A DNA stretch of 42,443 nt from NCBI GenBank assembly GCA_027025615.1, contig JALVQM010000166.1, forward strand, positions 1 through 42,443, read 5' to 3'. The translations under genes and the position numbers were made by a program. Positions within the stretch are counted from its first letter, which is position 1. The number at the start of each line of letters is the position of its first letter. Below the pieces are notes generated by a model. That model searched no databases and was not told the origin of the DNA. It saw only the letters and a program-made list of their open reading frames with translations. The DNA comes from Desulfobacteraceae bacterium (lineage in GTDB: Bacteria; Desulfobacterota; Desulfobacteria; Desulfobacterales; Desulfosarcinaceae). Shown here one piece after another: positions 12,565 to 29,198 of this stretch.

Positions 12565-12603
12565 AAATAAAAAAGCCACCCCTCAATGTCTGCGAGGGGT
12601 GGC
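12564..12603 (-). terminator. Intrinsic terminator between convergent genes, strongest in the minus direction
   Basis: Perfect 10-bp stem GCCACCCCTC / GAGGGGTGGC (12575-12603) with a 9-nt loop. On the minus strand it is followed by TTTTTTATTT. Confidence 0.65.
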
Positions 12604-12639
12604 GCTATTGTCTGGATTCATCAGCCAACAGGATGTCAA

Positions 12640-13620
12640 TTACCTTCCACAACCGCCGCCACCGGAACCGCCTCCAGAGCCACCACCTTCTCCGCCACCG
12701 GGACCGCCTCCTTCTCCACCATGGCCCCCCATGGCACCCTGGTCTCCCATACCGCCGTGGTCACCCGAGACACTACCATGTCCCTGGCTGCTGTCACCAT
12801 AGCCGCCCATGAAACCCTGGTGCGTTTCTCCCATTGTGTTATGTTCTCCCATGGTTGTATGTCCCATGTTTTCAGGCGACATGCCTGAATGTAAAGCATT
12901 GGCATATCTGGAAGCAAGGTTGTCGGGTTCCATGGAGGAATGTGAACACTGCTCAGAGAACGACGCACGCATACTGTGCATTTGCTGCGACATATAGCCC
13001 GCCTCCAGAGCTTTAGAAACCACATCGGCTGCATGGGCCGAGCTGACACCGTGACGCGCCATGTCCCTTGCGGTCATAACTGCTTCCATTGCAAGGGAAT
13101 GCATCTGCGATGGTTGAGTATCATTTGTCTTGCTTTCCAGGTGCCCCATGATCTTGGCTGCATCCTGCTGGCTCATTCCAGCACTCAGACAGGCTGCTAT
13201 AGCCATTCCCAAACGGCTTTGTTCACTTTGGTTTTTCGAAAGTCGTGACGCCTGCTGAAAGGCAAAGGAATAGCGTGACTGCACCTGATGCATGGCAGCC
13301 ACTATCTTTTCAGGCTGGGCATGCTTAGCCATACCTTCAAATGCTTTACTGATGACAGGTTCAGGTGGCAAACCTTGCCGGCATGCGCTTATAACAACGT
13401 TTTGGGCCTTGACAATATCCTGATCATTGAAACGGGCACGAATCATGGACCTGGTCATTTCTACCGCTTTAGCCAATGGCACCCCGGCCTTGGCCATTGC
13501 CTGGGTATTGGTTTGCAGTTTAACTGACCATTGTCCGGGAATCTCGGAACCTGATTCAGTCGCATTAACCGGATTTACAATTAGCAACATCAGTAAAATT
13601 GGTAGTAAAATTTTCTTCAT
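12640..13620 (-). CDS. Secreted helical-repeat protein with a C-terminal Met/His/Gly-rich low-complexity tail (unknown family)
   Basis: Signal peptide MKKILLPILLMLLIVNPVNA. Three loosely similar helical segments (ACRQGLPPEPVISKAFEG / ACLSAGMSQQDAAKIMG / ARHGVSSAHAADVVSKALEAG). Tail NMGHTTMGEHNTMGETHQGFMGG...GGGSGGGSGGGGCGR. Confidence 0.7.
   Translation of the reverse strand: MKKILLPILLMLLIVNPVNATESGSEIPGQWSVKLQTNTQAMAKAGVPLAKAVEMTRSMIRARFNDQDIVKAQNVVISACRQGLPPEPVISKAFEGMAKHAQPEKIVAAMHQVQSRYSFAFQQASRLSKNQSEQSRLGMAIAACLSAGMSQQDAAKIMGHLESKTNDTQPSQMHSLAMEAVMTARDMARHGVSSAHAADVVSKALEAGYMSQQMHSMRASFSEQCSHSSMEPDNLASRYANALHSGMSPENMGHTTMGEHNTMGETHQGFMGGYGDSSQGHGSVSGDHGGMGDQGAMGGHGGEGGGPGGGEGGGSGGGSGGGGCGR
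12643..12888 (-). repeat. Low-complexity coding repeat (Met/His/Gly, then a poly-Gly/Ser/Glu tract)
   Basis: The plus strand shows reiterated ccgcc/ccacc units. This produces the spurious Pro-rich mirror ORF 12599..12802. Confidence 0.8.
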
Positions 13621-13684
13621 TTTTCTCCTCCGTTGTTTCCAGGTTTAACACTGAAAACGTACGGCCGGCGAAAAGGTTACAGTT

Positions 13685-14005
13685 TCAGGGCACAAAAATA
13701 CAGTTTTTCCCTCCAAAATCATCTGTCTCCGCCAGCTGACAATCAGGAACATATATCTTCCCATCAACAATGTAAAAATAAGTAAACTCTTTTTCAGCCG
13801 ACACCTCTACTACCCAGGTTGAAGAGCCACTTTGCCGTGCCTTGCGAAGTTTAAAGCTATCCAAAGAAGCAGCCAGCTGCACGTCCCGGGCATCCGGGAT
13901 CTGCAGGAAAAGCTTTACAGAGCGATTTTCTTTCTGGATATAATGCACCGGTGTACAACCAAGAATGAATATGGCCGCAAACAGCATGCAAACAATTTTA
14001 TTCAT
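13685..14005 (-). CDS. Small lipoprotein with a CBM48/AMPK-beta glycogen-binding-like domain
   Basis: Lipobox AAIFILGC. FTYFYIVDGKIYVPD...DDFGGKNCIF parallels the C-terminus of the adjacent anti-sigma factor. The start overlaps that gene's stop by 4 nt. Confidence 0.7.
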   Translation of the reverse strand: MNKIVCMLFAAIFILGCTPVHYIQKENRSVKLFLQIPDARDVQLAASLDSFKLRKARQSGSSTWVVEVSAEKEFTYFYIVDGKIYVPDCQLAETDDFGGKNCIFVP

Positions 14006-14565
14006 ACATCCCTCTTGACTTCTATAATTGAATTCTGCCCCCCGAAATCGTCCAGCTCTCGAGTTGTAATTGTAGGATCGGGAATCAGGCGCTTATTTTC
14101 AATAACGTAATTATAGCGGTGCTCCCCCACAGGCAATTTCAAATTCAGCACCCAATAGCCGGATGAATCGACCTTTTGCATGGGTACGGGCCGCCAGTTC
14201 GTAAAACTACCCACTATGGAGGCGCTGTTGACACCCGGCAGGTAGACAACAAAACGGTGCGGCATTCCTGAAGAAGCCATCTTTACCGGGGCATGCATTC
14301 CAGGATAAATGAAAAGCAGGGCCACAACCAGCATGGCAGCCACCGCAACAGGTTGCAACCATCGCCAGCGGAAAACCCTGTGACGGGGAAGCTGGATGTC
14401 AGGAATACTTTTAACCATTTCCCCCCTGAGCAACTTCTCTTGTTTGAGCAAAACAATAGTCTGGCGTTTGAATTCATTATCGTCAGCAACCTGCTCTACA
14501 AATTGAATCTTTGTATCAAGATCCAATTCATCATCAATAAACATGCTGATCAGATAACCTTTCAT
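14002..14565 (-). CDS. Single-pass anti-sigma factor with a periplasmic CBM48/AMPK1_CBM-like domain
   Basis: Short cytoplasmic N-terminus, one TM segment (PVAVAAMLVVALLFIY), then VVYLPGVNSASIVGSFTNWRPVPMQK..GYWVLNLKLPVGEHRYNYVIENKRLIPDP..DDFGGQNSI. The start overlaps the ECF sigma stop by 4 nt. Confidence 0.65.
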   Translation of the reverse strand: MKGYLISMFIDDELDLDTKIQFVEQVADDNEFKRQTIVLLKQEKLLRGEMVKSIPDIQLPRHRVFRWRWLQPVAVAAMLVVALLFIYPGMHAPVKMASSGMPHRFVVYLPGVNSASIVGSFTNWRPVPMQKVDSSGYWVLNLKLPVGEHRYNYVIENKRLIPDPTITTRELDDFGGQNSIIEVKRDV

Positions 14566-15065
14566 AACCTGTCCTCTTCCAGATATTTTCTTAATCTTAA
14601 GCGGGCACGATGCACTTTGACTTTTACGTTTGCCTCGCTGATACCCAAAAGAATGGCAATCTGCCTGTAAGACATTGCCCCTTCTGCCACAAGGGCCAGG
14701 ATTTCCCTCTGCGGATGATCAAGCTTTTGCATAGCTGCCAGAACAATTCGATATTGTTCCCTGACCATCAGGTGGTGTTCATGGTTGGTATTGGCCGGCA
14801 CTTCTTGTTCCGGCAACGATACCTGCCTGGACTTGCGACGAAAATGATCCGACATCAAATTACGTGCAATCCTGAACAGCAGGGATTCATTGGGTTCATC
14901 ATCTCCGTATCGCTCCAGGTACCGAGTAAAACTTTCCTGCATCAAATCCGCAGATAAATAATAATCACCGGTAACCTTCAACAGGTAACCGAAAAGTTTG
15001 CGTTTACAACCATTATAGAATGACTTGTAACAGTTCACGCTATCAATAACGTTCCAGGTTGCCAA
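14562..15065 (-). CDS. ECF-type RNA polymerase sigma-70 family factor
   Basis: Region 2 (LSADLMQESFTRYLERY) and region 4 HTH (MSYRQIAILLGISEANVKVKVHRARLRLR). TTG start 3 nt after the iorB stop, with AAGGTG 6 nt upstream. Confidence 0.85.
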   Translation of the reverse strand: MATWNVIDSVNCYKSFYNGCKRKLFGYLLKVTGDYYLSADLMQESFTRYLERYGDDEPNESLLFRIARNLMSDHFRRKSRQVSLPEQEVPANTNHEHHLMVREQYRIVLAAMQKLDHPQREILALVAEGAMSYRQIAILLGISEANVKVKVHRARLRLRKYLEEDRL

Positions 15066-15068
15066 AAG

Positions 15069-15662
15069 TTACACCTTTATTTCATTTTGGACATTTTTAA
15101 ACAGGTGCAAGTTGGCCTCCAGGCCGGCTCCTGCCATCAGGTCTGCCATGGCCTGCTGGTAATGGATTGACTCAACTCCTCGGACAAGGTTGTATTTATT
15201 GATCAAGCCCAGGACAGCTACATTCTGCATACGGGCATCTTGCAACTCAGGTCTATGTACCCTAATCACCCTGGCGTTGAGCGTTCGTCCCAGATCATCG
15301 ATTTGCCGGTTTTTAACAGTTTTCGCCTTGCCAAGTCGTACGTCGAGAGGTTGCCACACAGCGTCATAGTAAATAAGAGTTCCCTTTTCGCGCAACATTT
15401 CTGCCATGGCCCGCAAAGCCTCATGCCTCTCCAAGGCGATGACCAAATCTGCACAACCGCTTTGAATAAGCGGAGAATAAACAGCTTCGCCAATTCTTAT
15501 TTGAGAAACCACAATTCCACCCCTCTGGGCCAGCCCATGGGTATCGACTGCCTTGACCATGAAGCCGGCATGATCAACAGCCCGTAATAAAATTTCACTC
15601 AGCATGCCGATACCCTGACCTCCAACACCGGTTAAAAATATATTAAAGACTGAAGCCATCAT
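15069..15662 (-). CDS. iorB: Indolepyruvate:ferredoxin oxidoreductase, beta subunit
   Basis: IFLTGVGGQGIGMLSEIL...THGLAQRGG motif of the POR-gamma/IorB family. Overlaps the iorA stop by 4 nt. Confidence 0.85.
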   Translation of the reverse strand: MMASVFNIFLTGVGGQGIGMLSEILLRAVDHAGFMVKAVDTHGLAQRGGIVVSQIRIGEAVYSPLIQSGCADLVIALERHEALRAMAEMLREKGTLIYYDAVWQPLDVRLGKAKTVKNRQIDDLGRTLNARVIRVHRPELQDARMQNVAVLGLINKYNLVRGVESIHYQQAMADLMAGAGLEANLHLFKNVQNEIKV

Positions 15663-17587
15663 TGACTCTCCTTTTGTAAATGGCTGGTACCGCCCTCAAC
15701 CGTCCTGTTTCCGCCTTCCACAGGACCGGGTGCATTTATTGCTGAACTGGGGCAGGTCTGCAGGCATGAACCATCTCCGATACACAAATCGGGATTGACC
15801 TTTACCGCGCCATTTGCATGACGAACAAAACTTGGACAACCAAAACGGGCGATACAAGTCTGTATCCGTTTGCATTTTTGCTGATCGATCACTACCTGGT
15901 AGGGCCGGTAGTTCGCCTGCTTGCGCCGCTGACGGGTAAACTTTAGCATACATGGATGCCTGGCAATTACCACTGCGAACTGATCAGTGGCAACGGCCTG
16001 TTCAACTGCCAGGCGCAGCTTTTCCTGCTGGTAACTATCTGTTTCGTATATATGTTTAATACCAAGGGCTTCCAGTATCTTGCGGATGGGAATTTTTTCT
16101 GTTGCCCGGTTGAAGTTTCGGCCCGAGGCGGCATGGTCCTGGTGTCCGGTCATGGCGGTAGTCCCGTTTTCCATAACGATCAAGGTCAATGGGTGCTGGT
16201 TGAAAATTGCATTTATAATACCCGGAAGACCGGCGTGAAAAAACGTGGAATCACCGATGAAGGCCACAACCTTGCGGGTTTTGTTGAAAAGTGACAATCC
16301 AGATCCGATCCCGGTGGAAGCCCCCATACACATTAACAACTGTCCCATTTCATAAGGGGGCAAAAACCCCAGTGTATGACAGCCGATATCGGCAACGGTT
16401 ATGTCTGTATCAGCCAGTGCCTGCTTGATAGCGAAAAAAGCACTCCGGTGCCCGCACCCGGGGCACAACTGGGCGGGACGATGGGCTACCTCAAGAGGAT
16501 ATTCTTTTTTCGGCAACCCAACAATATCAGGCCAGACTTTATTTAAAACAATTCGTACCTTGTCCGGGGAATATTCTCCCATCCAGTCATCAAGATCGCG
16601 TTTGCCAACGATTTTCACTTTTAAACCCCGGTCAAAGGCCAGGGATTTTATTTCCGTTTCCAGTTCATTGTCCAGTTCCTCCAGGACTTTTACCTCCCGG
16701 TGGTTCTCAAGAAAAGAAGTTACAGTATCTGCCGCCAGGGGATAAGGCATTGCCAACTTCAGAATGTCGGGAGGCTTTGGAATATCTTTCACCACTTCCA
16801 TTAAAGAATGAAACGGCAGGCCTGCTGTAATTACTCCCCTTGCCGGGTTGCCGTTATCCACAATTGTGTTGAGATCTTGAGATTCGGCCAGCTTCCTTGC
16901 TCGCGAAAGGTTTTCCAATGCCCGTTTTTTGAATGGAAAAACAAGTGCTGCCAATGGAATATAGGGGCCATTGGCCGGATCAAACGCGGGAGTATCATCC
17001 GGCACTGCGGGCCTCCAATGACCGAAGTTTACCTTTTGTTTAGCGTGGCATACGTGGGTCGTTAATCGCAAGATTACCGCCATACCGTTTGAACGGGCAA
17101 AGGCGGCAGCCTTCAAATAGAAATGATAAACCTCCCGGGGGTCTGCTGGTTCCAGAATTGGCGTATAGCTCATCCGGGCATAATGGCGATTATCCTGCTC
17201 ATTCTGAGAGGAGTTCGCACCTGGATCATCCCCTAAAACAATCACCATTCCACCGGTAATATTCATCATGCTCAGCTGCACAAAAGTATCTGCCGCCACG
17301 TTTAGGCCGACACTTTTGAAAAACACCGTTGACAAGTGCCCATTTACCGCCGCCCCGTAAGCAACTTCGGTGGCAACCTTTTCATTGGTTGAAAACTCAA
17401 AATAAAAAGGCCTCTGCTCCGGCGGAATTGAGCCTATGGCAGTGGCTATTTCCGGCGTGGGCGACCCGGGGTAGGAGGTAACCACTCTTGTTCCTGACTC
17501 TATCATAGCCCTGACCAGAGCAGTGTTTCCCATTACCAACTCGGCAAACGGCTCCCGGGTCAGAAGCATGTCCTTCATTTTCTTCAT
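15659..17587 (-). CDS. iorA: Indolepyruvate:ferredoxin oxidoreductase, alpha subunit
   Basis: GNTALVRAMIESG..SYPGSP, TPP motif GDSTFFHAGLPG, and C-terminal cysteine clusters CKRIQTCIARFGCPS and CIGDGSCLQTCP. The start is set at ATG 17587 behind AAGGGGGGA. The tracked start at 17641 has no Shine-Dalgarno sequence. Confidence 0.85.
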   Translation of the reverse strand: MKKMKDMLLTREPFAELVMGNTALVRAMIESGTRVVTSYPGSPTPEIATAIGSIPPEQRPFYFEFSTNEKVATEVAYGAAVNGHLSTVFFKSVGLNVAADTFVQLSMMNITGGMVIVLGDDPGANSSQNEQDNRHYARMSYTPILEPADPREVYHFYLKAAAFARSNGMAVILRLTTHVCHAKQKVNFGHWRPAVPDDTPAFDPANGPYIPLAALVFPFKKRALENLSRARKLAESQDLNTIVDNGNPARGVITAGLPFHSLMEVVKDIPKPPDILKLAMPYPLAADTVTSFLENHREVKVLEELDNELETEIKSLAFDRGLKVKIVGKRDLDDWMGEYSPDKVRIVLNKVWPDIVGLPKKEYPLEVAHRPAQLCPGCGHRSAFFAIKQALADTDITVADIGCHTLGFLPPYEMGQLLMCMGASTGIGSGLSLFNKTRKVVAFIGDSTFFHAGLPGIINAIFNQHPLTLIVMENGTTAMTGHQDHAASGRNFNRATEKIPIRKILEALGIKHIYETDSYQQEKLRLAVEQAVATDQFAVVIARHPCMLKFTRQRRKQANYRPYQVVIDQQKCKRIQTCIARFGCPSFVRHANGAVKVNPDLCIGDGSCLQTCPSSAINAPGPVEGGNRTVEGGTSHLQKESQ

Positions 17588-17718
17588 CTTTCCCCCCTTT
17601 CGTGTCATTTGCCGCAGTAAACCCTGAACAAGCATAAACATTAAGCGACAACCGGAAAATCAGTCGTTCCCTGGTTTACCAATAATATAGCCGGAAAGAT
17701 AAAAAGTAAGGGCTGACT

Positions 17719-17757
17719 CAAAAAAACAGGGGAACTACGGCATAGCCGTCGTCCCCC
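17719..17757 (-). terminator. Rho-independent terminator of the double-receiver gene
   Basis: The minus strand reads GGGGACGACGGC-TAT-GCCGTAGTTCCCC followed by TGTTTTTTTGAG, 36 nt after the stop at 17793. Confidence 0.7.
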
Positions 17758-17792: not shown

Positions 17793-19457
17793 TCAGGCCG
17801 CCAAACGCAAGGCCTGCTCGGTTGCCTTGCGAATTTCATTTGGTGTAAAGGGCTTTGGCAAATAGTCTACAACACCCAACCTGGCTGCCTCCACCGCGGT
17901 TTCGATGCTGGCATAACCGGTTATCATGATAACTTTGGATTCGGGCCTGCGATTGCGAATCGTTTCCAACAGCTCGAGCCCTTTTACGCCGGGAATACGC
18001 AAATCCAATATTATCAACTGGTATGACTGGCTGTCCAGTTTAGCCAGGGCTTCATCCTTGGCCGTTGCCTGATCCACGACATATCCTTTTTTGGCCAGAA
18101 TCTTTCGGATATTGTTGTTTACAGAAACTTCATCGTCAATCACCAGGATTTTGTATTCAGCCTGTCCTCCATCCAGTTTCCTGAACCTTTCGGTAGCAGA
18201 TAACCGCTTGTTTTCGCTTTCATAACTGTCCTTCAGCTGCTCATAATATACCTGAACCACGCCATCGTGCTGCAGGATGCCCAGATAGTCTTTGCCGGTC
18301 ACAGCTGCGACTTCATCGTATTGAAAAGGCATATCAGGGCTGATAAAGCGCTTGGCATCAAATCCTGTAGCAACCTTGGCTTTTTTCTTCTTGGCCAGAC
18401 GCGGGCATTTCTCGGTTTTTATCCCGGCTTTACAGGTTGCCCCGAGCTTCTTGAAAATATCACAAACCTGGTTGCCCACAGCGCAAAAACCTTCAAGATC
18501 ATCTGAAACCGTTATCTCCACTGCGGGTATATCTGATCGGCCAAGCTGGCGTGCATACTGTCTGCCGGTCACCTTTTCAACCTCGTAACTGTCAAAAGGC
18601 GAATCCACGTCTATCTTAGCCCTTTGTTCAAGTCGGGCCAGATTTTGCTTCAATTCTTCATAGGTGGGCACTACCACACCGTCTGAACGCATGTAAGTAA
18701 TATACTCAGGACCGGTTACCGCAACGACCTCATCATATTCAAAAGGCTGATCAATACCTATTAATTTTTTGCTGTCGAAGGATTTTTTTCTTTTGCTGGA
18801 TGCTGCTTTCTTCTTGGCCTTCTGAGGGCACTTGGCGTTTTTAACGCCGGCTTTACAGGTCGATCCAAGTTTTTTGAAAATATCGCAAACCATCTGGCCC
18901 ACTTCACAAAACCCAGCCAGGGGTTGATCTGATTTTACCTCCACCACCGGCATATCCGAAGGACCAAGAGTTTTTGCGTAGGCTTCTCCTGTCTGCCTGG
19001 ATACCTCTTCAATTTCAAAGGGAATATCAACATCGATTACGTCAATGGCCTCTCTTTCAGCCTCGGAAATTTTAGCTTCCACCAGTTTGCCTGCCAGGGC
19101 CTTTTCTACAGTTTCCCGTAATTCTGCAGGAGTAAAAGGTTTGGGAAGATAATCAAGTGCTCCCAAGCGTATGGTCTTCAGGGCAGTATCGGTCGAAGCA
19201 AAGGCGGTCATCATCACAACCTTGGTAAGGGGCCACTGCTTTTTTACCAGTTTGAGCAACTCCACCCCGTTCATACCGGGCATGACTATATCGGAAATCA
19301 TAAGTGAAAAAGTTTCCTTGGCCATTTTTTCCAGAGCATCCTTGGCGCTCAGGGCATGGGTTACCTTGTAGTTATTCTTGCCGAGAATCTTTTCCACATT
19401 TTTGCAAATACCTACTTCGTCATCAATTACGATTATCTTAGCCGAATTCTCCATCAT
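17793..19457 (-). CDS. Orphan double-receiver response regulator: REC, two Cys4 modules of unknown family, then REC
   Basis: aa 7-120 and 435-550 are CheY-like (IDDE..., SDIVMPGMNG / LDLRIPGVKG, DYLPKPFTP in both). The middle part is an internal duplication with no output domain I recognise. Confidence 0.8.
   Translation of the reverse strand: MMENSAKIIVIDDEVGICKNVEKILGKNNYKVTHALSAKDALEKMAKETFSLMISDIVMPGMNGVELLKLVKKQWPLTKVVMMTAFASTDTALKTIRLGALDYLPKPFTPAELRETVEKALAGKLVEAKISEAEREAIDVIDVDIPFEIEEVSRQTGEAYAKTLGPSDMPVVEVKSDQPLAGFCEVGQMVCDIFKKLGSTCKAGVKNAKCPQKAKKKAASSKRKKSFDSKKLIGIDQPFEYDEVVAVTGPEYITYMRSDGVVVPTYEELKQNLARLEQRAKIDVDSPFDSYEVEKVTGRQYARQLGRSDIPAVEITVSDDLEGFCAVGNQVCDIFKKLGATCKAGIKTEKCPRLAKKKKAKVATGFDAKRFISPDMPFQYDEVAAVTGKDYLGILQHDGVVQVYYEQLKDSYESENKRLSATERFRKLDGGQAEYKILVIDDEVSVNNNIRKILAKKGYVVDQATAKDEALAKLDSQSYQLIILDLRIPGVKGLELLETIRNRRPESKVIMITGYASIETAVEAARLGVVDYLPKPFTPNEIRKATEQALRLAA
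18231..19037 (-). repeat. Tandem intragenic duplication encoding two modules of about 130 aa
   Basis: aa 141-270 and aa 282-409 align throughout at roughly half identical residues by eye (IDVDIPFEIEEV.. / IDVDSPFDSYEV..). Each contains GFCxVGxxVCDIFKKLGxTCKAGxKxxKCP (C-x6-C-x9-C-x8-CP) and a Lys-rich linker. Confidence 0.85.
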
Positions 19458-19555: not shown

Positions 19556-19571
19556 ATCAAATAACGTGCCA
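19556..19571 (-). promoter_or_regulatory. Candidate sigma54 (-24/-12) promoter for the double-receiver gene
   Basis: The minus strand reads TTGGCAC-GTTAT-TTGAT. The -24 TGGCAC and the spacing are perfect, but the -12 element is TTGA instead of TTGC. It lies about 100 nt upstream of ATG 19457. Confidence 0.35.
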
Positions 19572-19644: not shown

Positions 19645-19665
19645 GTGTATAATTTTATTATACAC
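19645..19665. promoter_or_regulatory. Perfect inverted repeat GTGTATAAT-TTT-ATTATACAC (candidate activator or operator site)
   Basis: 9-bp arms with a 3-bp spacer, about 80 bp upstream of the sigma54-like element. Related TTATAC boxes recur at 19704-19712 and 19767-19779. Confidence 0.4.
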
Positions 19666-19766
19666 TTTCCATAACCGGAAGTGACCTATTTGCTGGATTA
19701 GATTTATTATACTTGGATTAAGCGTATAATATTACAGGGTGTTAACTGATTTGAGTATATTTTTTT

Positions 19767-19779
19767 TATACACTGTATA
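19767..19779. promoter_or_regulatory. Palindrome TATACA-C-TGTATA sharing the TTATACAC box
   Basis: Read directly from the sequence. It lies about 200 bp upstream of the sigma54-like element. Confidence 0.35.
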
Positions 19780-20213: not shown

Positions 20214-20561
20214 TTATACTGTTAAAAGCTTTTCTTCATTTGTTAAAATTTCTGTCAAGGGAAGCCCCCAATACCTGACTTCAATGCCCAGTTCTTCCAA
20301 CGTTTGGGTAACTTCCAATTGATCTGCACATGCTTTACAGGCGGTTACCAGCACACCTGCCTCCTGAGCCTCCCTGATCATTTCCTGAATATCCCTGTTT
20401 TCACCAACCAATTTTGCAGTTGCACCCCAAATGATAATGGTAACCTTCTCCCACCAACCTTGAAGGAGAGAATTGACTGCATACATAAACACCATTTTTT
20501 CTGCTGTAATAACATTATCATTGGTCCATAATAAATACAGGTGTGTTTTCTTGGATTCCAT
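20214..20561 (-). CDS. DsrE/DsrF-like (DrsE_2-type) sulfur-relay family protein
   Basis: LYLLWTNDN..., IIIWGATAKL, VLVTACKACAD. ATG 20561 follows GGGGGAG. The tracked start at 20597 has no Shine-Dalgarno sequence. Confidence 0.65.
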   Translation of the reverse strand: MESKKTHLYLLWTNDNVITAEKMVFMYAVNSLLQGWWEKVTIIIWGATAKLVGENRDIQEMIREAQEAGVLVTACKACADQLEVTQTLEELGIEVRYWGLPLTEILTNEEKLLTV

Positions 20562-20728
20562 CAATCTCCCCCGATTCTTTGAGGTTACCGTGGCCAACTC
20601 ATGCCGCTAAATACAAGGTTTTCTGTAAACTCAAGGGGATAGAGGTATGCCCCCATCAATACCTGGTTCAGCACCAGGGACTTAATTGACTTCATTTTAT
20701 TATAAAAATATTTGCGCCACTCCATATT

Positions 20729-22456
20729 TTAAGAAATACCGTAACGTTTCATTTTACGCCACAGGGTTGTCCGATCCATTCCCAGTGCCCTGGCAGTTTT
20801 ACCACGATGGCCTCCATGGTCTTTCAAAGCACAGCTGATTTTCCGGGCTTCACCATCCATCTGATTGCTTCCCCGTCCAGGCCTGTTAGCCGACTGTCTG
20901 CCTGTCTGCAGGTAGCCCGGCAAATGCTCAGGTCTGATTGTGCTGGAAGTACACAAAATCAATGCATGTTCAATAATGTTCTCCAGCTCCCTGATGTTGC
21001 CCGGGTAATCGAAGTTGAGCAGAATTTTCATTGCAGAGGCAGACACCTTCGGCAAGCGTCGTCCCTTAAGGGCGCACAGTTTACGCAATACGTGGCTTAT
21101 CAACAATGGCAGATCCCCCCTGCGGGCCGTCAGGGGCGGCAATTCAATCCTTACAACGTTTAAACGATAGTATAGATCTTCACGAAACTGATGATCTGCT
21201 ACAAGTTTATCCAGTTGGCGATTGGTAGCAGAAAGAATACGAACATCGACCTTCTTGGTACGATGACTTCCAAGAGGATAGAATTCCCGGTCTTCAATCA
21301 CGCGCAGAAGTTTGGCCTGCAGGGCAAGTGGAAGGTCACCTATTTCATCCAAAAAAATTGTTCCGCCATGGGCTTCGTCAAAACGACCCGGCTTGTCCCT
21401 GTCTGCACCGGTGAAAGCGCCCTTTACGTAACCGAAAATTTCGGACTCGAGTAAGTTGTCAGGTATGGCAGCGCAATTAACTTTCACAAACGGTTTATGA
21501 GCCCTGTGACTGGAGGCGTGAATCACTTTTGCGAGCAAATCCTTTCCTGTTCCGGTCGGGCCTTCAATAAGAACGGTAGCATCACTGGATGAAACCATTG
21601 ACACAATTTTAAATATCTTTTGCATGGCAGGACTCTTACCGATCATGTCCCGGAAGGTGTACCGGTTCTCCATGGCCTGGTGTAACTGATGCAGCAAGGT
21701 CAAGTCCCGGAAAGTGGCAAGACCACCAATGGTTACACCTTTCTCGTTGCGCAGGGCCATGTAACGAATCTGGATTGGAATGGCGGCTCCCTTTTCGTCT
21801 ATTATGCTTCCATGCTGGCTTTGTCTTGACTTTCCATCTTTAATGGTTTTCTGCAAAAGACGCAGGTCATCTGCCTGAGGTTTTTCAAAAAGCACGGCGC
21901 ATGATCGACCAAGGAGGCGTTTGCGGTTGTAACCGGTAATCTGCTCTGCGGCTGTGTTAAAAAAAGTTATCAATCCTCCACGGTTAACCGTAAAAACGCC
22001 GATGTCCAGGCTGTCAAGAATGTTTTTCAGTTTGCTTTCTTCGTGATGAAGGCGTTCGATTAGATCCGATATGGGGGAATGATCCTGCAAGATTGTCAAA
22101 CATCCGGCCAGGTTACCATTGTCATCATAAATTGGAGTGGCCAATCTGGTTATCCAATAGGTGACCTCGTGTTCATCAGTAACCGCGACGTCAGGTTCTA
22201 CAACCGTCGTGTCACCAGAATTTGCAAGCACGCAACGGCTGAGGCAGGGCACACCGGTAAATATCTCACGACAATCACGCCCCACCACTTCGCCGGCCTG
22301 CATCCCTATCAAACCCTGGGCGTTCAAGTTAATGTCAATTATGGAATGCTCCCGGTCAACGGTAAAAGCGCCAATGGTCAGCTCATCGAGTACTTCCAGC
22401 CACTGACCACACTTAAGCATGGCTGAGGATGATTTTTCAGTGAAATTTTTCAACAT
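20729..22456 (-). CDS. Sigma54-dependent transcriptional activator: PAS-PAS-AAA+-HTH with no receiver domain
   Basis: Walker [15 protein letters not shown] loop ([15 protein letters not shown]), Walker B IFLDEIGD, and a C-terminal Fis-type HTH ([22 protein letters not shown]). Two PAS-like segments sit N-terminally. Confidence 0.9.
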
Positions 22457-22462
22457 TATCTT

Positions 22463-24016
22463 TCAGCTTTCATGGACAGGGAGTTTGATTACAAACTTAG
22501 TCCCTTGACCGACCTTGCTCATGACGTCAATGCTCCCTCCATGATTGGCGATTATACCATAGGTTATCGCCAGCCCGAGTCCAAGGCCGTTGCCTTCTTG
22601 CTTGGTGGTAAAAAACGGTTCAAAAATATGGTCCAGGTGCTCAGAATCGATTCCTGTTCCCGTATCTTCCACAGCTATACAGATATTGTTACTTGCATTG
22701 TCCTGAGAGGCGGCAATGATAATTTTACCACCTTGTTCCATGGCGTCAATAGCGTTGAAAACTAGGTTGATCACGCATTGCTGCAATTGGTTGGCGTCAC
22801 CGTATACAGGTGGAAGGTTGCCCCCGAAATCAGTATCCAGTTCAATCTTTGACAGCTCCAAGCGATGCCGGCTCAACAGCAGGCACTGTTCGAGCAATTC
22901 AGCCACATTGACTTTTTCTTTATGGATATCAGACTTTCGTGAAAAGGTGAGCAGGCCAGAAACTATTTCAGCACACCTGGCCGTTTCCTTTTCAACTATT
23001 TCAAGATAGCGTTTAAATTTTTGCCCCTGTCCTGAACCGTCTGGCTGGCGTCCCAAAATTTTCAACATCAAACGGACATAATTGAGAATGGCTGAAAGGG
23101 GATTGTTGATTTCATGGGCTACACTTGCGGCCAATCTGCCAAGAGAAAGCATCTTGTCTTGATGAAGCAACCGGGCCTGATCCGCCATTTCCTGCTGGAG
23201 ACGATGTATCACCCTCAAGTCACGAACAAAACAGACCATACCCTGGGGCTGCTGTTCATCTTTGATATGACTCATGGATAGTTGGACGGGGACAGGATGG
23301 CCGGAACGATCCAGCATCCAGGTATCGTACAATAAAAGTCGATCGACTCCGCCGTACTTTTGACCGGCGAGATCACGGCGCAAGCGTTTTTCTTCTTCGG
23401 AGCTGAAAAAATCAGACAGGTGCATGTGGCTTATCGCCTGGCTACGTGAATAACCCAACAATGCCTCAATGCTTGCGTTAAAAGTCACAACTACCTCATC
23501 AGAATCAAAGCCCAGAATACCATCCATCGAACTTTCGATAAGATTTTGCTGGTACTTGTGTGTTTCCAGCAGCTCCTTGGATGCGCGAGACCAGCCCTCT
23601 TCAAGAAAACGTGTATAATCCTTTATTTTTTTTCTGTTTTCAAAACGCTCCCGGGCCCTTTCTATTGCTATCATCAGGGCATTGGCGCTTATCGGCTTGG
23701 TTATGAAATCTGATGCATCCAGCTTAAGTGCTTCTACCGCAAAATCCAGATCGGCATGGCCTGTGACAACAATCACTTCTATCTCAGGCCATTTCTTTTT
23801 TACCTGTGCCAGCACATCAAGGCCGGACAATCCTGGCATCCTGATGTCTGTAAGAATAATGTGGGGCTGGAAATTGGCTGTCTTATCAAGCCCAGTATTC
23901 CCGCTGTTCGCTGTTTCGACGTGAAACCCTGCATCGGCCAAGGCAATTGCGGCTACCTCGGCAACGTCAACATCATCATCGATTACAAGCGCCCGCCAGG
24001 TGAAATTGTCTTCCAT
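22463..24016 (-). CDS. Histidine kinase with an N-terminal receiver: REC-PAS-HisKA-HATPase
   Basis: ALVIDDDVD...[10 protein letters not shown] receiver, H-box [11 protein letters not shown] box [10 protein letters not shown], and G boxes DTGTGI and [12 protein letters not shown] 24016 follows AAGGGAGA. Confidence 0.85.
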
Positions 24017-24148
24017 GTTAACGATCTCCCTTGTTGGAGGCAGACAATGGCGATGATCAATTATTGACAAGTATAGGATAGGCAAGTGCCCAGGTCAATC
24101 GCATTGCCGGGCCATTCAATACCAGACTATTAATCAACTCTGCTCGAA

Positions 24149-24173
24149 CTTGTGCTTGCAGTGTAAGCACAAG
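24149..24173. promoter_or_regulatory. Inverted repeat CTTGTGCTT-N7-AAGCACAAG in a divergent promoter region
   Basis: Perfect 9-bp arms, lying between the kinase start (24016, minus) and the MFS start (24248, plus). Confidence 0.35.
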
Positions 24174-24247
24174 ATGAATAAAATTCAGAAAACCTCCTGA
24201 AACGTATATCGGGAAACAGCAATACTGTGACAGCAAAGGAGCATGCA

Positions 24248-25534: not shown

Positions 25535-25658
25535 CAGACAGCCGGTTCGGAAAACAACCAGCGGCCGGGTGCAATATTCTCCATGCATGTTTAAAAGCCA
25601 TTGAGAATAAATATAATTTTGAGCTTACTATTTTTAAGCAAAATTATCAGGATCAATT

Positions 25659-26276: not shown

Positions 26277-26359
26277 TTAAATAAGTTTTGTATTCAGATT
26301 CGAAACACTTTAGATTTAAGCAGTTAAAATACAAGTACTTTGACTAGCGGGGTGACAGA

Positions 26360-27799
26360 ATGAATATAGCAGTTGTAGGCGGAGGTAAACGATGTAAGCA
26401 GCTGATAGAGATGATCGATCGGCATAGTTTCCAGGAGGTCGATCCAAAAATCCTGGTGGTTGCCGAATCTGATCCACAGGCACCCGGTGTCATGGCAGCC
26501 AGGCAGAGAGACATCCTTGTGGTGGAAGATTACAACCAGGTGCTTGGGCGTGACGACATTGACCTAATAGTTGAGCTTACCGGAAGCATGGATGTCTACA
26601 ATAACATTATTGCTAAAAAAAAGAATGCAGTACGTGCAATAGCGGCCCAAACCGCCCAATTGTTTTGGGAAATATCGAGGATATCGACTTTACAGAAAAA
26701 GACAGACCAGGAGCTGCGCGAAACCCGGTCTCTATATCACATGGTTATAAACGAGTTGCTCCAGGAAGATGTGCTGGTAATTTCCTATGATTATAGAATT
26801 CTCGACATAAACGATACTTTACTGAAAAAGCTTGGTTTGAGCCGGGAACAGGTGATTGGCAGGCCGTGCTATGAAATTACCCACAAAAGACAAGCGCCCT
26901 GCGACGGTGATCTGCACCCCTGCCCCCTGAAAGAAACCCTGGCAACTGAAAAGCCCTCTCAAACCACCCACATTCATTTCGATAAAAACGATCGCAAAAT
27001 GTACTACTCCATTTCGACTTACCCTTTGATCGAACACGGCGATGTTATTGGGGCCATAGAAATTTCAAGGGATATAAGCAATGAGATCAATGTTCAGAAA
27101 TCATTGATGCACCAAGAAAAAATGGCATCCATAGGAAGATTGTCGGCAGGTGTTGCTCACGAAATCAACAATCCACTGACAACGATTCTGACCACAACCA
27201 TGCTGGTCCAGGAGGATTTACCCAAAAATGATCCAATTTACAATGAACTGGAAACAATAGCCAAAGAAACTCTGCGTTGCCGCAAAATAGTAACCAGCCT
27301 GTTAAATTTTGCCCGGCAAAACAAACCGGTCATCCAGCCTCACAAAATCAACGAAATTGTGATGGACAGTATTATTCTCACCCACAAGCAGGCTGCCTTC
27401 AAAGACATAAGTATTGAACATGATCTTGCCAATAACATACCCAAAGTGCCTATTGATAAAGGCCAGATTGAGCAGGTATTGATCAATCTGGTACTCAATG
27501 CCATCGACGCGACTGAACCAGGTGGAACTATATTTGTAAAAACAAGCTGGGATGAAAGCAAACAAGAAGTGGCGGTTCAGGTTATAGATACGGGAAAAGG
27601 AATTGATCCTGGAGACATAGATAGAATTTTCGATCCCTTTTTTACCACCAAGGGTAACGGCACCGGGCTTGGGCTTGCACTTTCCCATGGAATTATAGAA
27701 GAACATGGCGGAGCCATTAATGTTGAAAGCGAGCCCGGGTACGGTACAACTTTTACCATTTTGCTGAAATCTGAAAAGGGAAATAATCATGGCTCGTAA
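26360..27799 (+). CDS. Cytoplasmic sensor histidine kinase: Rossmann-like N-domain, Cys/His-bearing PAS, HisKA and HATPase
   Basis: There are no TM segments. MNIAVVGGGKRC... has a beta-alpha-beta-like start. The PAS carries GRPCYEITHKRQAPCDGDLHPCP. H-box [10 protein letters not shown] and G boxes DTGKGI and GTGLGLA. Confidence 0.85.
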   Translation: MNIAVVGGGKRCKQLIEMIDRHSFQEVDPKILVVAESDPQAPGVMAARQRDILVVEDYNQVLGRDDIDLIVELTGSMDVYNNIIAKKKNAVRAIAAQTAQLFWEISRISTLQKKTDQELRETRSLYHMVINELLQEDVLVISYDYRILDINDTLLKKLGLSREQVIGRPCYEITHKRQAPCDGDLHPCPLKETLATEKPSQTTHIHFDKNDRKMYYSISTYPLIEHGDVIGAIEISRDISNEINVQKSLMHQEKMASIGRLSAGVAHEINNPLTTILTTTMLVQEDLPKNDPIYNELETIAKETLRCRKIVTSLLNFARQNKPVIQPHKINEIVMDSIILTHKQAAFKDISIEHDLANNIPKVPIDKGQIEQVLINLVLNAIDATEPGGTIFVKTSWDESKQEVAVQVIDTGKGIDPGDIDRIFDPFFTTKGNGTGLGLALSHGIIEEHGGAINVESEPGYGTTFTILLKSEKGNNHGS

Positions 27800-29198
27800 A
27801 ATCGTCCGCCTGCTTATAGTGGATGATGAAATCCAGATCTGCAAAAGCTGTGTCAAGATATTAGCAAAGGTAGGTTACCAGGCTGATTTTGCCCTTGATG
27901 GTTATAACGCCCTAAAACTGCTGGCAAGCAAATCTTACGACTGCCTGCTGCTGGATCTAAAAATGAGCCGTATGGGCGGCATGCAAGTACTACGCGCAGT
28001 TAAAAGAAACTATCCGGAAACAAAAGTAATTGTAGTTACGGGTTACTCGAGTGTATCTTCAGCGGTTGAAGTTATGAAACTCGGAGCTTGCGACTATTTA
28101 CCAAAACCTTTTACTCCCGAGGAATTACGCGCTGTAGTAAAACAGGCAATATCTGAAAAACAGCTTGAAACTGAAAATCGCCGCCTTAAGCGAGGATTAG
28201 TAAAAAATCGTCCCCTTAGCCATCAATTGATTGGCAACAGTCCCCAGATAAAAAAAGTAGTCCAGATGGTGGCCAAGGTAGCCCCTACCGATTCGACGGT
28301 TGTTGTCTGTGGTGAAAGCGGAACCGGCAAAGAGTTGATCGCCAGAGCGGTTCACGCCAACAGCAAAAGAGCTGACAAAGTTTTTTTTGCAGTCGATTGT
28401 GGGACCCTTTCCAAGAACCTTCTGGAAAGCGAATTGTTCGGGCATAAAAAGGGTGCTTTTACCGGGGCTTACAAGGAAAAGCAGGGAGTGTTCCTGCGTG
28501 CCGACGGTGGCACTGTATTTCTCGACGAGATAAGCAACATTGACCTTGAAGTCCAGGGTAAACTGCTGAGGTTTATTGAAAGCCGCGAATTTTTGCCCAT
28601 AGGGGCTACCCGGCCGCAAAAAGTTGACGTGCGCTTGATTTTTGCTTCTAACCGGAATCTTAAAGAACTGGTCGACAAGGGGCTTTTCAGGGAAGATTTT
28701 TATTACCGGATTTTTGTCTACCCCATAGACCTGCCACCGTTACGCGAGCGCAAAGAAGACATCCTGCCAATCGCTTACCATTTCCTGTCGGTTTTCAGCA
28801 ATCGCATAGGCAAAAGCATTAAAGGCTTCAATGATAACGCAATTAAACATCTCACAACGTTTCAGTGGCCGGGCAATGTACGCCAGCTGCGCAATGTAAT
28901 TGAACGGGCAACCATTTTATCTGAATCCGACCATATCTCCTCAAAAGATCTTGCCTTGTTGAATGAAGCAGATCCATTGGAACAATTAATAGATTATGTA
29001 CCTGAAACCAATGATGAGCTTAAAAGAGTAAAGAAACAGATTCGCGCAAAAGCAATTGCCAAGGTGGAAAAAAATTTTTTACTCAATGCATTATTGAAAA
29101 ATGACTGGAATATAACCCGTGCCGCAGCCAAGGTGGGCCTCCAGAGAACTAACTTCCAGGCTATGATGAAAAAACATGGCATCAGACGACCTGTCTGA
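27789..29198 (+). CDS. NtrC-family sigma54-dependent response regulator (REC-AAA+-HTH)
   Basis: LLIVDDE...LLLDLKMSRMGG receiver, GESGTGKE, KGAFTGAYKEKQGVF, VFLDEISN, and C-terminal HTH ITRAAAKVGLQRTNFQAMMKKHGI. Overlaps the kinase gene by 11 nt. Confidence 0.9.
   Translation: MARKIVRLLIVDDEIQICKSCVKILAKVGYQADFALDGYNALKLLASKSYDCLLLDLKMSRMGGMQVLRAVKRNYPETKVIVVTGYSSVSSAVEVMKLGACDYLPKPFTPEELRAVVKQAISEKQLETENRRLKRGLVKNRPLSHQLIGNSPQIKKVVQMVAKVAPTDSTVVVCGESGTGKELIARAVHANSKRADKVFFAVDCGTLSKNLLESELFGHKKGAFTGAYKEKQGVFLRADGGTVFLDEISNIDLEVQGKLLRFIESREFLPIGATRPQKVDVRLIFASNRNLKELVDKGLFREDFYYRIFVYPIDLPPLRERKEDILPIAYHFLSVFSNRIGKSIKGFNDNAIKHLTTFQWPGNVRQLRNVIERATILSESDHISSKDLALLNEADPLEQLIDYVPETNDELKRVKKQIRAKAIAKVEKNFLLNALLKNDWNITRAAAKVGLQRTNFQAMMKKHGIRRPV

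What the first reader, a model, noticed from the sequence alone, without database searches (positions are those of the whole stretch)
17793..19457. Orphan REC, two Cys4 modules, REC protein with an unrecognised duplicated domain
Both termini are bona fide CheY-like receivers, with the acidic pocket and DYLPKPFTP in each. The 290 aa between them are a tandem duplication (aa 141-270 and 282-409).

Each copy has the same layout:
- The motif D-x-PF-x3-EV-x3-TG-x2-Y.
- GFCxVGxxVCDIFKKLGxTCKAGxKxxKCP, which is C-x6-C-x9-C-x8-CP.
- A Lys-rich linker (KAKKKAASSKRKK / AKKKKAK).
- A second copy of the PF...EV...TG..Y motif.

This gives eight conserved cysteines in two identical spacings, each ending in Cys-Pro as ferredoxin-type ligands do. 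That suggests two metal or Fe-S sites, but the spacing matches no cluster motif I know. There is no DNA-binding or enzymatic output domain.

The gene is its own transcription unit, with a sigma54-like promoter and a clean terminator. It looks like a redox- or metal-gated phosphorelay node or phosphate sink.
Basis: partly seen in the sequence, partly recalled or inferred. Interest (0 to 1): 0.7.

Follow-up and report, generated by a model that had tools for sequence, protein, structure and literature searches.

The report
Dual-receiver regulator with novel Cys4 modules
This gene encodes a signalling protein with two phosphate-receiving domains flanking a duplicated, previously undescribed cysteine-rich module, and in sulfate-reducing Desulfobacterales it is the conserved third partner of a kinase/sigma-54 activator pair encoded next to a heterodisulfide-reductase-type energy operon.

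Summary
ORF 17793-19457 (-) encodes a 554-aa protein. It has two complete CheY-like receivers (D-D-D-T-K kept in 70/70 orthologues). Between them is a tandem duplication, aa 141-279 vs 282-418, 53% identical, E 2e-46.

Each copy reads A unit, Cys4 knot, Lys-rich linker, A' unit. A and A' are homologous helical hairpins. The eight motif cysteines are invariant in 70/70 orthologues and 186/186 modules. A divergent branch keeps four Cys with changed loop lengths.

The module matches nothing in Pfam, NCBIfam, PDB sequences or Foldseek. Only 71 representative clusters in 1.84 billion proteins carry it.

"Orphan" is wrong. In 54/61 species genomes the gene directly follows a REC-sigma-54 activator, usually preceded by a PAS kinase. 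It has a conserved sigma-54 promoter and GTATA-N7-TATAC enhancer palindromes. In 50/58 it precedes a Sec-HdrA/NuoEF/MvhD operon with its own sigma-70-like promoter.

In the window an ~8-kb inversion moved the cognate-type pair to 26360-29198. Promoter, palindromes and terminator are intact.

The A' unit also heads a GcvH-like protein in front of another Sec-HdrA operon.

Most likely it is an activator-induced, phosphorylation-gated, metal-binding adaptor for Hdr-type redox complexes. Metal identity and partner are untested.

The parts
17793..19457 (-). Gene for the 554-aa REC - (A-Cys4-Krich-A') x2 - REC protein
   Evidence: ORF list; Pfam; 455 homologues; identical protein in the same gene order on an independent metagenome scaffold
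19095..19436 (-). Receiver domain 1 (aa ~8-121), phospho-acceptor D56
   Evidence: Pfam/NCBIfam; D12, D13, D56, T84, K106 conserved 70/70; pLDDT >90
18936..19037 (-). A unit 1 (aa 141-174, IDVDIPFEIEEVSRQTGEAYAKTLGPSDMPVVEV), helix-turn-helix hairpin
   Evidence: Alignment A1; AF2 helices at pLDDT ~80 in the module model; A and A' homologous, hhalign prob 98.5%, E 2e-15
18825..18908 (-). Cys4 knot 1 (aa 184-211, C184/C191/C201/C210-P211)
   Evidence: Invariant in 186/186 modules and 70/70 orthologues; VCDIFKKLG-TCKAG is the most conserved stretch of the protein
18768..18824 (-). Lys-rich linker 1 (aa 212-230)
   Evidence: Net charge +8 over aa 211-230; sequence variable but always basic
18648..18764 (-). 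A' unit 1 (aa 232-270, LIGIDQPFEYDEVVAVTGPEYITYMRSDGVVVPTYEELK)
   Evidence: (pLDDT 81-92); the same unit occurs at the N-terminus of GcvH-like proteins
18513..18614 (-). A unit 2 (aa 282-315)
   Evidence: Internal duplication
18402..18485 (-). Cys4 knot 2 (aa 325-352, C325/C332/C342/C351-P352)
18348..18401 (-). Lys-rich linker 2 (aa 353-370)
18231..18347 (-). A' unit 2 (aa 371-409)
17820..18149 (-). Receiver domain 2 (aa 437-546), phospho-acceptor D485
   Evidence: Pfam best stretch 437-546; D441, D442, D485, T513, K535 conserved 70/70
19557..19571 (-). Sigma-54 -24/-12 promoter TGGCACGTTATTTGA, about 100 nt upstream of the ATG
   Evidence: Unique in the window; equivalent motif 60-114 nt upstream in 78/82 homologous loci
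19647..19663 (.). Proximal enhancer-like palindrome GTATA-N7-TATAC (inside GTGTATAAT-AAA-ATTATACAC)
   Evidence: Only two matches in the window, 0.01 expected by chance; same palindrome type upstream of the gene in 64/82 loci
19755..19771 (.). Distal enhancer-like palindrome GTATA-N7-TATAC
17720..17757 (-). Intrinsic terminator (12-bp GC-rich hairpin plus U7)
   Evidence: RNA fold -24 kcal/mol, z = -3.3
26360..27799 (+). Cognate-type PAS histidine kinase (inferred partner)
   Evidence: Pfam; 53% identical over full length to the kinase that precedes the gene in canonical loci; displaced by an inversion
27789..29198 (+). Cognate-type REC-sigma-54 activator (GAFTGA), inferred activator of the gene's promoter
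   Evidence: Pfam; 63% identical to the canonical neighbour EBP; its receiver is the closest receiver in the window to the target's two receivers, 41-44% vs 31-36%

Best explanation
The protein is the third component of a conserved Desulfobacterales signalling cassette: PAS histidine kinase, then REC-sigma-54 enhancer-binding protein, then this gene.

Proposed mechanism:
1. When the kinase fires, the phosphorylated activator binds the GTATA-N7-TATAC palindromes and drives the sigma-54 promoter. The only recognisable target of that promoter in the locus is this gene.
2. The new protein has two fully competent NtrC-type receivers, related to the activator's own receiver. It is most likely phosphorylated by the same kinase. 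That gives a second, delayed branch, and incidentally competition or feedback on the activator.
3. Its output is the central array. Each Cys4 knot binds a metal, either an Fe-S cluster or Zn. The four acidic A/A' helical hairpins with their Lys-rich linkers act as docking elements. These tether the protein to HdrA/MvhD/NuoEF-type redox complexes or their carrier proteins, so that kinase input, and possibly redox state, modulates that machinery.

Shown: the anatomy, the conservation, promoter/enhancer/terminator conservation, the synteny, and sharing of the A' unit with a GcvH-like protein at another Sec-HdrA operon.

Inferred: who phosphorylates it, that metal is bound, which metal, and the docking partner.
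For: **Conservation**
- Receivers are complete and conserved 70/70.
- The eight Cys are invariant.
- Four Cys are retained with altered loops in the divergent branch: C-x6-C-x8/9-C-x3/4-C(P). All 76 metagenome loci of that branch have C-x6-C-x8-C-x4-C, followed by Pro in 75.
- Non-Cys residues of the knot (VCDIFKKLGATCKAG) are 96-98% conserved, more than the receiver active sites.

**Synteny and regulatory signals**
- REC-EBP directly upstream on the same strand in 54/61 species-representative loci. NuoE-like gene directly downstream in 50/58.
- The divergent branch also follows HK then EBP.
- Sigma-54 promoter in 78/82 loci and palindromes in 64/82. In the window both palindromes are unique to this promoter.
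- The downstream operon lacks sigma-54 motifs (5/63) and palindromes (1/63). It has its own conserved TTGACAAG-N17-TATAGGT-type promoter in 60/61 loci, against 12% of control windows.

**Partners in the window**
- The window's EBP and HK at 26360-29198 are 63% and 53% identical to the canonical neighbours.
- Receiver similarity to that EBP is 41-44%, against 31-36% to the other receivers in the window.

**The A' unit**
- It is also present (E 1e-22 to 1e-25) at the N-terminus of a subset of GcvH-like proteins.
- Those are sigma-54-promoted first genes in front of Sec-HdrA/MvhD operons.

**Precedent**
- A sigma-54 two-component regulator controls adh-flx-hdr in D. vulgaris: DVU2394 regulates DVU2405-2399 (PMC4641369).
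Against: - There is no experimental data of any kind.
- AlphaFold gives no confident fold for the Cys4 region (pLDDT about 40-55) and no confident packing of the centre against the receivers. The region could be disordered without a partner or metal, or simply unmodelled.
- The Cys spacing matches no known Fe-S or Zn motif.
- In the window and its closest relative L008 no Hdr-type operon lies next to the gene, so adjacency is not required.
- The docking idea rests on guilt by association from two gene contexts.
- The activator may have further targets elsewhere in the genome.
- Two family members lack the Cys4 knot altogether: P0179 and the degenerate P0186.
Confidence: 0.45

Rival explanations
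1. It is a cascade transcription factor. The Cys4 knot plus Lys-rich tail is a new nucleic-acid-binding output, with the A units as helix-turn-helix-like elements. The sigma-54 system makes the protein. The protein, once phosphorylated, then regulates the conserved sigma-70-type promoter of the adjacent Sec-HdrA/NuoEF/MvhD operon.
For: - The redox operon has its own conserved promoter with conserved flanking sequence, and no sigma-54 site. So the kinase/activator pair can reach it only indirectly.
- Each knot is followed by a linker of net charge about +7 to +8.
- The A units are predicted as two short helices.
- Response regulators usually end in DNA-binding outputs.
Against: - There is no similarity to any HTH or zinc-finger family.
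- The A units are strongly acidic.
- The same A' unit sits on a GcvH-like carrier-type protein, where DNA binding is not expected.
- The window and L008 lineage keeps the gene intact without the operon next to it.
Confidence: 0.2
2. It is an inducible phosphate sink or feedback element only. The two receivers drain phosphoryl groups from the kinase once the activator has switched the gene on. The centre is a flexible spacer stabilised by structural Zn or disulfides, with no output of its own. This is essentially the first reader's 'phosphate sink'.
For: - Two complete receivers with no recognisable output domain.
- Induced by its own pathway, given the sigma-54 promoter next to the EBP.
- The centre is low-confidence and possibly disordered in AF2.
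- There are architectural precedents of dual-receiver proteins without output, such as FrzZ in Myxococcus (from my own knowledge, not tested here).
Against: - A passive spacer would not keep VCDIFKKLGATCKAG at 96-98% identity, or four A units, under such constraint.
- A passive spacer would not be duplicated as a module.
- It would not share a unit with an unrelated protein family.
Confidence: 0.15
3. It is an anti-activator or co-activator of the sigma-54 enhancer-binding protein. Like PspA for PspF or HrpV for HrpS, the first product of the sigma-54 promoter binds back onto the activator's AAA+ or receiver domain, here in a phosphorylation-dependent and possibly redox-dependent way.
For: - Gene position immediately behind the EBP, under an EBP-dependent promoter.
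- Receivers related to the EBP's receiver could heterodimerise with it.
- The theme is known for sigma-54 systems (from my own knowledge).
Against: - No homology to PspA, HrpV or FleN.
- It does not explain the A' unit on GcvH-like proteins at Hdr operons.
- It does not explain the Cys4 knots.
Confidence: 0.1

Closest known systems
NtrC-type two-component systems that control Hdr/Flx operons in sulfate reducers (DVU2394/DVU2395 regulating DVU2405-2399 in Desulfovibrio vulgaris; PMC4641369)
   Same: A kinase plus a REC-AAA+-HTH sigma-54 activator encoded next to a heterodisulfide-reductase-type redox operon, with a GG-N10-GC promoter.
   Different: In D. vulgaris the sigma-54 promoter is assigned to the redox operon itself, and the paper's regulon table lists no REC-X-REC third component. 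Here the sigma-54 promoter serves the extra gene, and the redox operon carries a sigma-70-like promoter.
Dual-receiver proteins without output domain (e.g. FrzZ of Myxococcus xanthus) and single-domain CheY-like phosphate sinks (own knowledge)
   Same: Two complete CheY-like receivers in one polypeptide and no classical DNA-binding or enzymatic output.
   Different: Those have a short low-complexity linker. Here 290 aa of highly conserved, duplicated A-Cys4-Krich-A' modules lie between the receivers.
Auxiliary proteins produced from the sigma-54 promoter of their own system (PspA/PspF, ZraP/ZraSR, HrpV/HrpS; own knowledge)
   Same: The first product of an EBP-dependent promoter next to the EBP gene, so a built-in feedback or branch logic is plausible.
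   Different: No sequence relationship. This protein is itself a phospho-acceptor and carries Cys4 sites.
Fe-S ligand motifs: ferredoxin CxxCxxCxxxCP and the EndoIII/MutY Fe-S cluster loop C-x6-C-x2-C-x5-C (own knowledge)
   Same: Four Cys, the last followed by Pro (ferredoxin-like). The first spacing is C-x6-C and there is a basic environment, as in the EndoIII loop.
   Different: The overall spacing is C-x6-C-x8/9-C-x3..8-C, which matches neither. There are no Fer4 or HhH-GPD Pfam hits.
Cys-rich GcvH-like proteins of Desulfobacterales (PF01597 hits; P0200, P0211 etc.)
   Same: They share the Lys-rich plus A' unit (E 1e-22 to 1e-25), a sigma-54-type promoter, and the position directly upstream of a Sec-HdrA/MvhD operon.
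   Different: Otherwise unrelated: no receivers, a different Cys-rich segment, and a lipoyl-carrier-like C-terminal domain. Most members of that family lack the A' unit.

Membership tests
CheY-like receiver (REC, PF00072) response regulator | Significant match to the receiver profile above the curated cut-off | tested here: met
   204.9 bits vs cut-off 30.2, two stretches
CheY-like receiver (REC, PF00072) response regulator | Acidic pocket (DD), phospho-acceptor Asp, switch Thr/Ser and Lys present in each domain | tested here: met
   D12/D13/D56/T84/K106 and D441/D442/D485/T513/K535, each 70/70 in orthologues
CheY-like receiver (REC, PF00072) response regulator | Phosphotransfer from a histidine kinase | not testable with these tools
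   Candidate kinase 26360-27799 inferred from synteny and homology only
Sigma-54 / enhancer-binding-protein-dependent gene | -24 GG / -12 GC promoter at the correct spacing upstream of the gene | tested here: met
   TGGCACGTTATTTGA at 19557-19571; conserved in 78/82 loci
Sigma-54 / enhancer-binding-protein-dependent gene | Upstream activator sites and a cognate EBP | tested here: met
   Two GTATA-N7-TATAC palindromes about 75 and 185 nt upstream of the -24 element, 0.01 expected by chance; conserved in 64/82 loci; EBP adjacent in 54/61 loci and present in the window. Binding itself was not tested.
Classical response-regulator output families (OmpR/PhoB, NarL/FixJ, NtrC AAA+, LytTR, GGDEF, CheB...) | Recognisable output domain | tested here: not met
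   No Pfam or NCBIfam domain between or after the receivers
Ferredoxin-type [4Fe-4S] binding motif | CxxCxxCxxxCP spacing / Fer4 profile match | tested here: not met
   Spacing is C-x6-C-x9-C-x8-CP; no Fer4 hit even at E<=5
Zinc ribbon / treble-clef zinc fingers | Two CxxC(H) knuckles | tested here: not met
   No CxxC pair in any of 186 canonical modules. The divergent branch ends in C-x3/4-C only.
Metal- or Fe-S-binding Cys4 site in general | Four ligands conserved while the intervening loops vary; metal present in the protein | tested here: inconclusive
   Ligand conservation with variable third loop (x3-x8) is met. Metal content is not testable. AF2 gives no confident geometry.
Any structurally characterised fold | Sequence or structure similarity to a PDB entry | tested here: not met
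   phmmer/hmmsearch vs PDB: best E 0.43-0.69; Foldseek best E 6.4 (low-confidence model)

The most novel reading that the evidence does not exclude
The A/A' hairpin is a new docking motif that tethers accessory proteins to selenocysteine-containing HdrA/MvhD electron-bifurcating complexes. It is found on this dual-receiver regulator and on a GcvH-like carrier. On this reading the regulator is an Fe-S-containing, phosphorylation-gated post-translational controller of such a complex, that is, a two-component pathway whose final output is direct control of an energy-conserving enzyme rather than transcription.
Probability: 0.15. Interest if true: 0.8.

Novelty: new variant of a known kind. Interest (0 to 1): 0.58.

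Why it matters
Hdr/Flx/NuoEF-type flavin-based electron-bifurcating complexes are central to energy conservation in sulfate reducers and other anaerobes, yet how they are regulated is largely unknown. This family gives a concrete, conserved handle:
- a three-gene signalling cassette wired to such an operon;
- a defined promoter and enhancer;
- a protein whose uncharacterised Cys4/A-unit module may link phosphorylation, metal or redox state, and the enzyme complex.

It also defines a new protein domain (A-Cys4-Krich-A') and a small mobile unit (A') that current databases do not annotate.

Tried and rejected
**Homology and structure searches that found nothing for the central region**
- Pfam and NCBIfam scans of the whole protein.
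- Pfam scan of 66 individual modules at E<=5, with no consistent weak family.
- phmmer and profile hmmsearch against PDB sequences, best E 0.43-0.69.
- AlphaFold2 of one module and of the full protein. Receivers are confident. The A units are confident only in the module model. The Cys4 region is not confident in either.
- Foldseek of the module model against PDB, with nothing at E<6.
- Exhaustive profile search of 1.84 billion representatives. It found only the family itself plus A'-bearing GcvH-like proteins.
- A/A'/Cys HMMs against all ORFs of 88 loci found no extra copies outside the gene.

**Other negative or uninformative results**
- Rfam on the window found no RNA family.
- The search for inverted repeats at the inversion breakpoints returned only kinase paralogy.
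- Literature searches for Flx/Flox-Hdr regulators and for Cys-rich or Fe-S dual-receiver proteins found nothing on this family.
- The first metagenome scan with a too-divergent alignment failed and was repeated with a tighter one.
- Context look-ups for P0143 and P0163 gave contigs too short to use.

**Ideas rejected**
- That the gene is the first cistron of a sigma-54 Hdr operon. The operon has its own conserved sigma-70-like promoter.
- That the adjacent PAS-EBP (20729-22456) is the cognate activator. Canonical loci pair the gene with the REC-EBP type, and the palindromes travel with the gene.
- That the window arrangement is a mis-assembly. The identical arrangement occurs on an independent scaffold.
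- An ATTGACAAG match at 24063-24071 was judged to be at chance level.
Full report
**1. What is there**

The ORF at 17793-19457 on the minus strand encodes 554 aa. Pfam finds only Response_reg: two stretches, 204.9 bits, E 3e-61. NCBIfam gives only partial receiver-domain matches to NtrC/ZraR/AtoC/FixJ-type regulators, far below their cut-offs.

Both receivers carry the full D-D-D-T-K set. Every one of these ten residues is conserved in 70/70 full-length orthologues.

The 290 aa between the receivers are a genuine tandem duplication. aa 141-279 and 282-418 are 53% identical, E 2e-46.

Each copy has four parts:
- an acidic 'A' unit (ID-D-PF-x3-EV-x3-TG-x2-Y...SDMPVVEV);
- a Cys4 knot (C-x6-C-x9-C-x8-CP);
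- a Lys-rich linker;
- an 'A-prime' unit (LIGIDQPF-Y-EV-x3-TGPEY...PYEELK).

A and A' are homologous (hhalign probability 98.5%, E 2e-15). The protein therefore holds four A-type units and two Cys4 knots. Eight of its nine cysteines are in the knots.

**2. Is it more than chance?**

Yes.
- A search with the central region alone finds 455 homologues.
- The Cys pattern is invariant in 186/186 modules of the best 120 hits and in 70/70 orthologues from species-representative genomes.
- VCDIFKKLGATCKAG is the most conserved stretch of the whole protein, at 0.96-0.98 mean identity, above the receiver active sites.
- A divergent branch keeps all four Cys and the first C-x6-C spacing. It shortens the last loop, giving C-x6-C-x8/9-C-x3/4-C, usually followed by Pro. 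All 76 metagenome loci of that branch have C-x6-C-x8-C-x4-C, followed by Pro in 75.

Conserved ligands with variable loops are what a metal site looks like. Two members (P0179, P0186) have lost the knot.

**3. Is the module known?**

No.
- No Pfam or NCBIfam family, even when 66 modules are scanned singly at E<=5.
- No PDB sequence relative.
- Foldseek finds nothing.
- A filter-free profile search of 1.84 billion representatives returns only 71 clusters, 52 of them at E<=1e-10, all from this family or carrying its A' unit.
- AlphaFold2 models the receivers at pLDDT >90. In the module-only model the A/A' units are short two-helix hairpins at pLDDT about 80-90. The Cys4 region scores about 40-55 and is modelled inconsistently between the two runs.
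- Four literature searches found nothing on this family.

**4. Genomic context: the gene is not an orphan**

Among GTDB species representatives the module occurs at 164 loci. Every named record is Desulfobacterales: Desulfosarcina, Desulfatitalea (including the cultured D. alkaliphila), Desulfococcus, Desulfonema and Desulfatirhabdium.

In the 80 loci fetched:
- A REC-sigma-54 activator lies directly upstream on the same strand in 54/61 loci with enough flank, usually preceded by a PAS kinase.
- A NuoE-like gene follows within 1.5 kb in 50/58.

The downstream operon, by precomputed Pfam hits, consists of a small HdrA-like gene, NuoE-like, NuoF-like, a Fer2/Fer4/Pyr_redox_2 (FlxC/HdrA-like) protein, MvhD (FlpD) and further Fe-S proteins. 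It is an Flx/Hdr-like, presumably flavin-based electron-bifurcating system.

The divergent branch also usually follows HK then EBP.

**5. Regulatory signals**

A GG-N10-GC sigma-54 promoter lies 60-114 nt upstream of the start codon in 78/82 loci. One or two GTATA-N7-TATAC palindromes lie further upstream in 64/82.

The window has all of this:
- TGGCACGTTATTTGA at 19557-19571, the only match in the window;
- two palindromes at 19647-19663 and 19755-19771, the only two in 42 kb, with 0.01 expected by chance;
- a strong terminator at 17720-17757 (-24 kcal/mol, z = -3.3).

In canonical loci the spacer to the redox operon almost never contains a sigma-54 motif (5/63) or a palindrome (1/63). Instead, in 60/61 loci it contains a conserved sigma-70-type promoter...GAATTNNATTGACAAG-N17-TATAGGT/TATACA, against 12% of control windows.

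So the kinase/activator pair's only recognisable direct target in the locus is this gene. The redox operon is a separate unit.

**6. The window is a rearranged version**

Compared with the closest relative L008 (72-73% nucleotide identity), the ~8.3-kb block 20906-29184 is inverted in place. That block carries PAS-EBP, REC-PAS-kinase, NnrU, PAS-kinase and REC-EBP. The cognate-type pair therefore now lies at 26360-29198 on the other strand.

The pair is 53% (kinase) and 63% (activator) identical over full length to the canonical neighbours in L002.

The target's receivers are 41-44% identical to that activator's receiver. They are 31-36% identical to the other receivers in the window.

Neither the window nor L008 has the Hdr-type operon downstream. 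In the window iorAB follows the terminator.

The identical protein in the same arrangement is present on an independent metagenome scaffold, so this is not a mis-assembly.

**7. A second home for the A' unit**

The representative search also hit proteins that have only the Lys-rich stretch plus A'. These are a 391-415-aa subset of a Cys-rich GcvH-like family. The A' HMM scores E 1e-22 to 1e-25 at residues 48-88, and most family members lack the extension.

In two loci this gene has a sigma-54-type promoter about 146 nt upstream. It is the first gene directly in front of a selenocysteine-interrupted HdrA-like gene, MvhD, and a second Sec-HdrA.

The same small unit therefore heads two unrelated proteins that each sit immediately upstream of Sec-HdrA/MvhD operons. 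This is the best available clue to what A/A' units do. It favours protein docking to Hdr-type machinery over DNA binding.

**8. Most likely mechanism**

The sequence of events is as follows.
- Kinase signal leads to phosphorylated activator on the palindromes.
- That drives sigma-54 transcription of this gene.
- The product is phosphorylated on one or both receivers, most simply by the same kinase.
- Its central array (metal-binding Cys4 knots, acidic A/A' hairpins, basic linkers) engages Hdr-type complexes or their carrier proteins.

| Status | Items |
|---|---|
| Shown | Anatomy, conservation, cis-elements, synteny, A' sharing |
| Inferred | Phosphodonor, metal binding and identity (Fe-S vs Zn about equally likely), partner |

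Rivals, with my confidence in each:
- a novel nucleic-acid-binding cascade regulator acting on the operon's sigma-70 promoter (0.2);
- a pure inducible phosphate sink (0.15);
- an anti- or co-activator of the EBP (0.1).

**9. Comparison with known systems and novelty**

The closest known systems are:
- the DVU2394/2395 sigma-54 system that controls adh-flx-hdr in D. vulgaris (PMC4641369);
- dual-receiver proteins such as FrzZ;
- feedback proteins made from their own sigma-54 promoters (PspA, ZraP, HrpV).

The protein is a member of the receiver superfamily, and those features were tested and met. It belongs to no known output family, Fe-S motif class or zinc-finger class, and those features were tested and not met.

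I rate it a new variant of a known kind: a response regulator with an undescribed, duplicated Cys4/A-unit module and a conserved three-component wiring to Hdr-type operons.

Interest is moderate to high for specialists in anaerobic energy metabolism and two-component signalling. Everything beyond anatomy and context still needs experiments.

Noticed in passing
window 20906-29184 (vs L008 1295-8536): An ~8.3-kb block carrying two kinase/sigma-54-activator pairs plus NnrU is inverted in place relative to the closest relative L008. This separates the dual-receiver gene from its cognate-type pair. The window also has about 8 kb (9334-17641: glycosyltransferase, GH130, Usp, ECF sigma, iorAB) that L008 lacks downstream of the gene.
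   Followed up: partly
L002:7772-8167 (and 61/61 canonical loci): The '59-aa FAD ORF' just downstream of the gene in canonical loci is the N-terminus of a ~131-aa mini-HdrA-like protein. It has an in-frame TGA (...FPTNDCAM-TGA-IISPKLVE...) at the position of the HdrA Cys/Sec, followed by a CTGCGLCVENCP ferredoxin motif. Gene callers truncate it at the TGA.
   Followed up: partly
L166:9001-10176, L167:9001-10182; P0200, P0206, P0211, P0214, P0229: A subset of Cys-rich GcvH-like proteins carries an N-terminal Lys-rich stretch plus A' unit. These genes have a sigma-54-type promoter (CTGGCATC-N4-GTTGCA, about 146 nt upstream) and head operons with two Sec-interrupted HdrA-like genes and MvhD.
   Followed up: partly
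L010-L087, spacer between the dual-receiver gene and mini-HdrA: There is a highly conserved sigma-70-type promoter region (GAATTNNATTGACAAG - about 17 nt - CATATAGGTAAAT, then a TTTGGTTT-like element) in 60/61 loci. The conservation extends beyond the hexamers and may include operator sites.
   Followed up: partly
window 14002-15065 (-): An ECF-type sigma factor (Sigma70_r2/r4) is followed by a 187-aa protein whose C-terminus matches the AMPK1_CBM/CBM48 glycogen-binding module. That is an unusual partner, possibly an anti-sigma factor with a carbohydrate-binding domain.
   Followed up: no
window 20214-20597 (-): A small DsrE/DsrF-like protein (weak Pfam hit, E 3.7e-4, below the cut-off) lies between the PAS-EBP and the dual-receiver gene's promoter region. 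It has no blastn counterpart in L008.
   Followed up: no
window 2436-4731 (+): A rhodanese-domain protein, a C_GCAxxG_C_C putative redox protein and an AIR-synthase-related (AIRS/AIRS_C) protein lie in a row, possibly a sulfur or selenium-handling cluster.
   Followed up: no
window 29630-34968 (+): A GntR/FCD regulator is followed by a class-III aminotransferase, an ornithine/aspartate carbamoyltransferase, a 454-aa protein with no Pfam hit, and an amino-acid kinase. This is an arginine/ornithine-type cluster directly after the cognate-type EBP.
   Followed up: no
window 12640-13620 (-), 1132-2073 (+), 32582-33946 (+): Three sizeable ORFs (326, 313 and 454 aa) have no Pfam match at the thresholds used.
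   Followed up: no
P0089, P0093, P0097, P0100 (homologues from metagenome assemblies): Several database homologues switch into out-of-frame garbage partway through the central modules and are truncated. These look like assembly or frameshift artefacts and would hide the second receiver from automated annotation.
   Followed up: no
window 24063-24071 (+): AATTATTGACAAG, resembling the conserved -35 region of the Hdr-operon promoter, lies in the divergent spacer upstream of the MFS transporter gene (24227-25534). There is no properly spaced -10 element, and 0.77 matches are expected by chance.
   Followed up: partly
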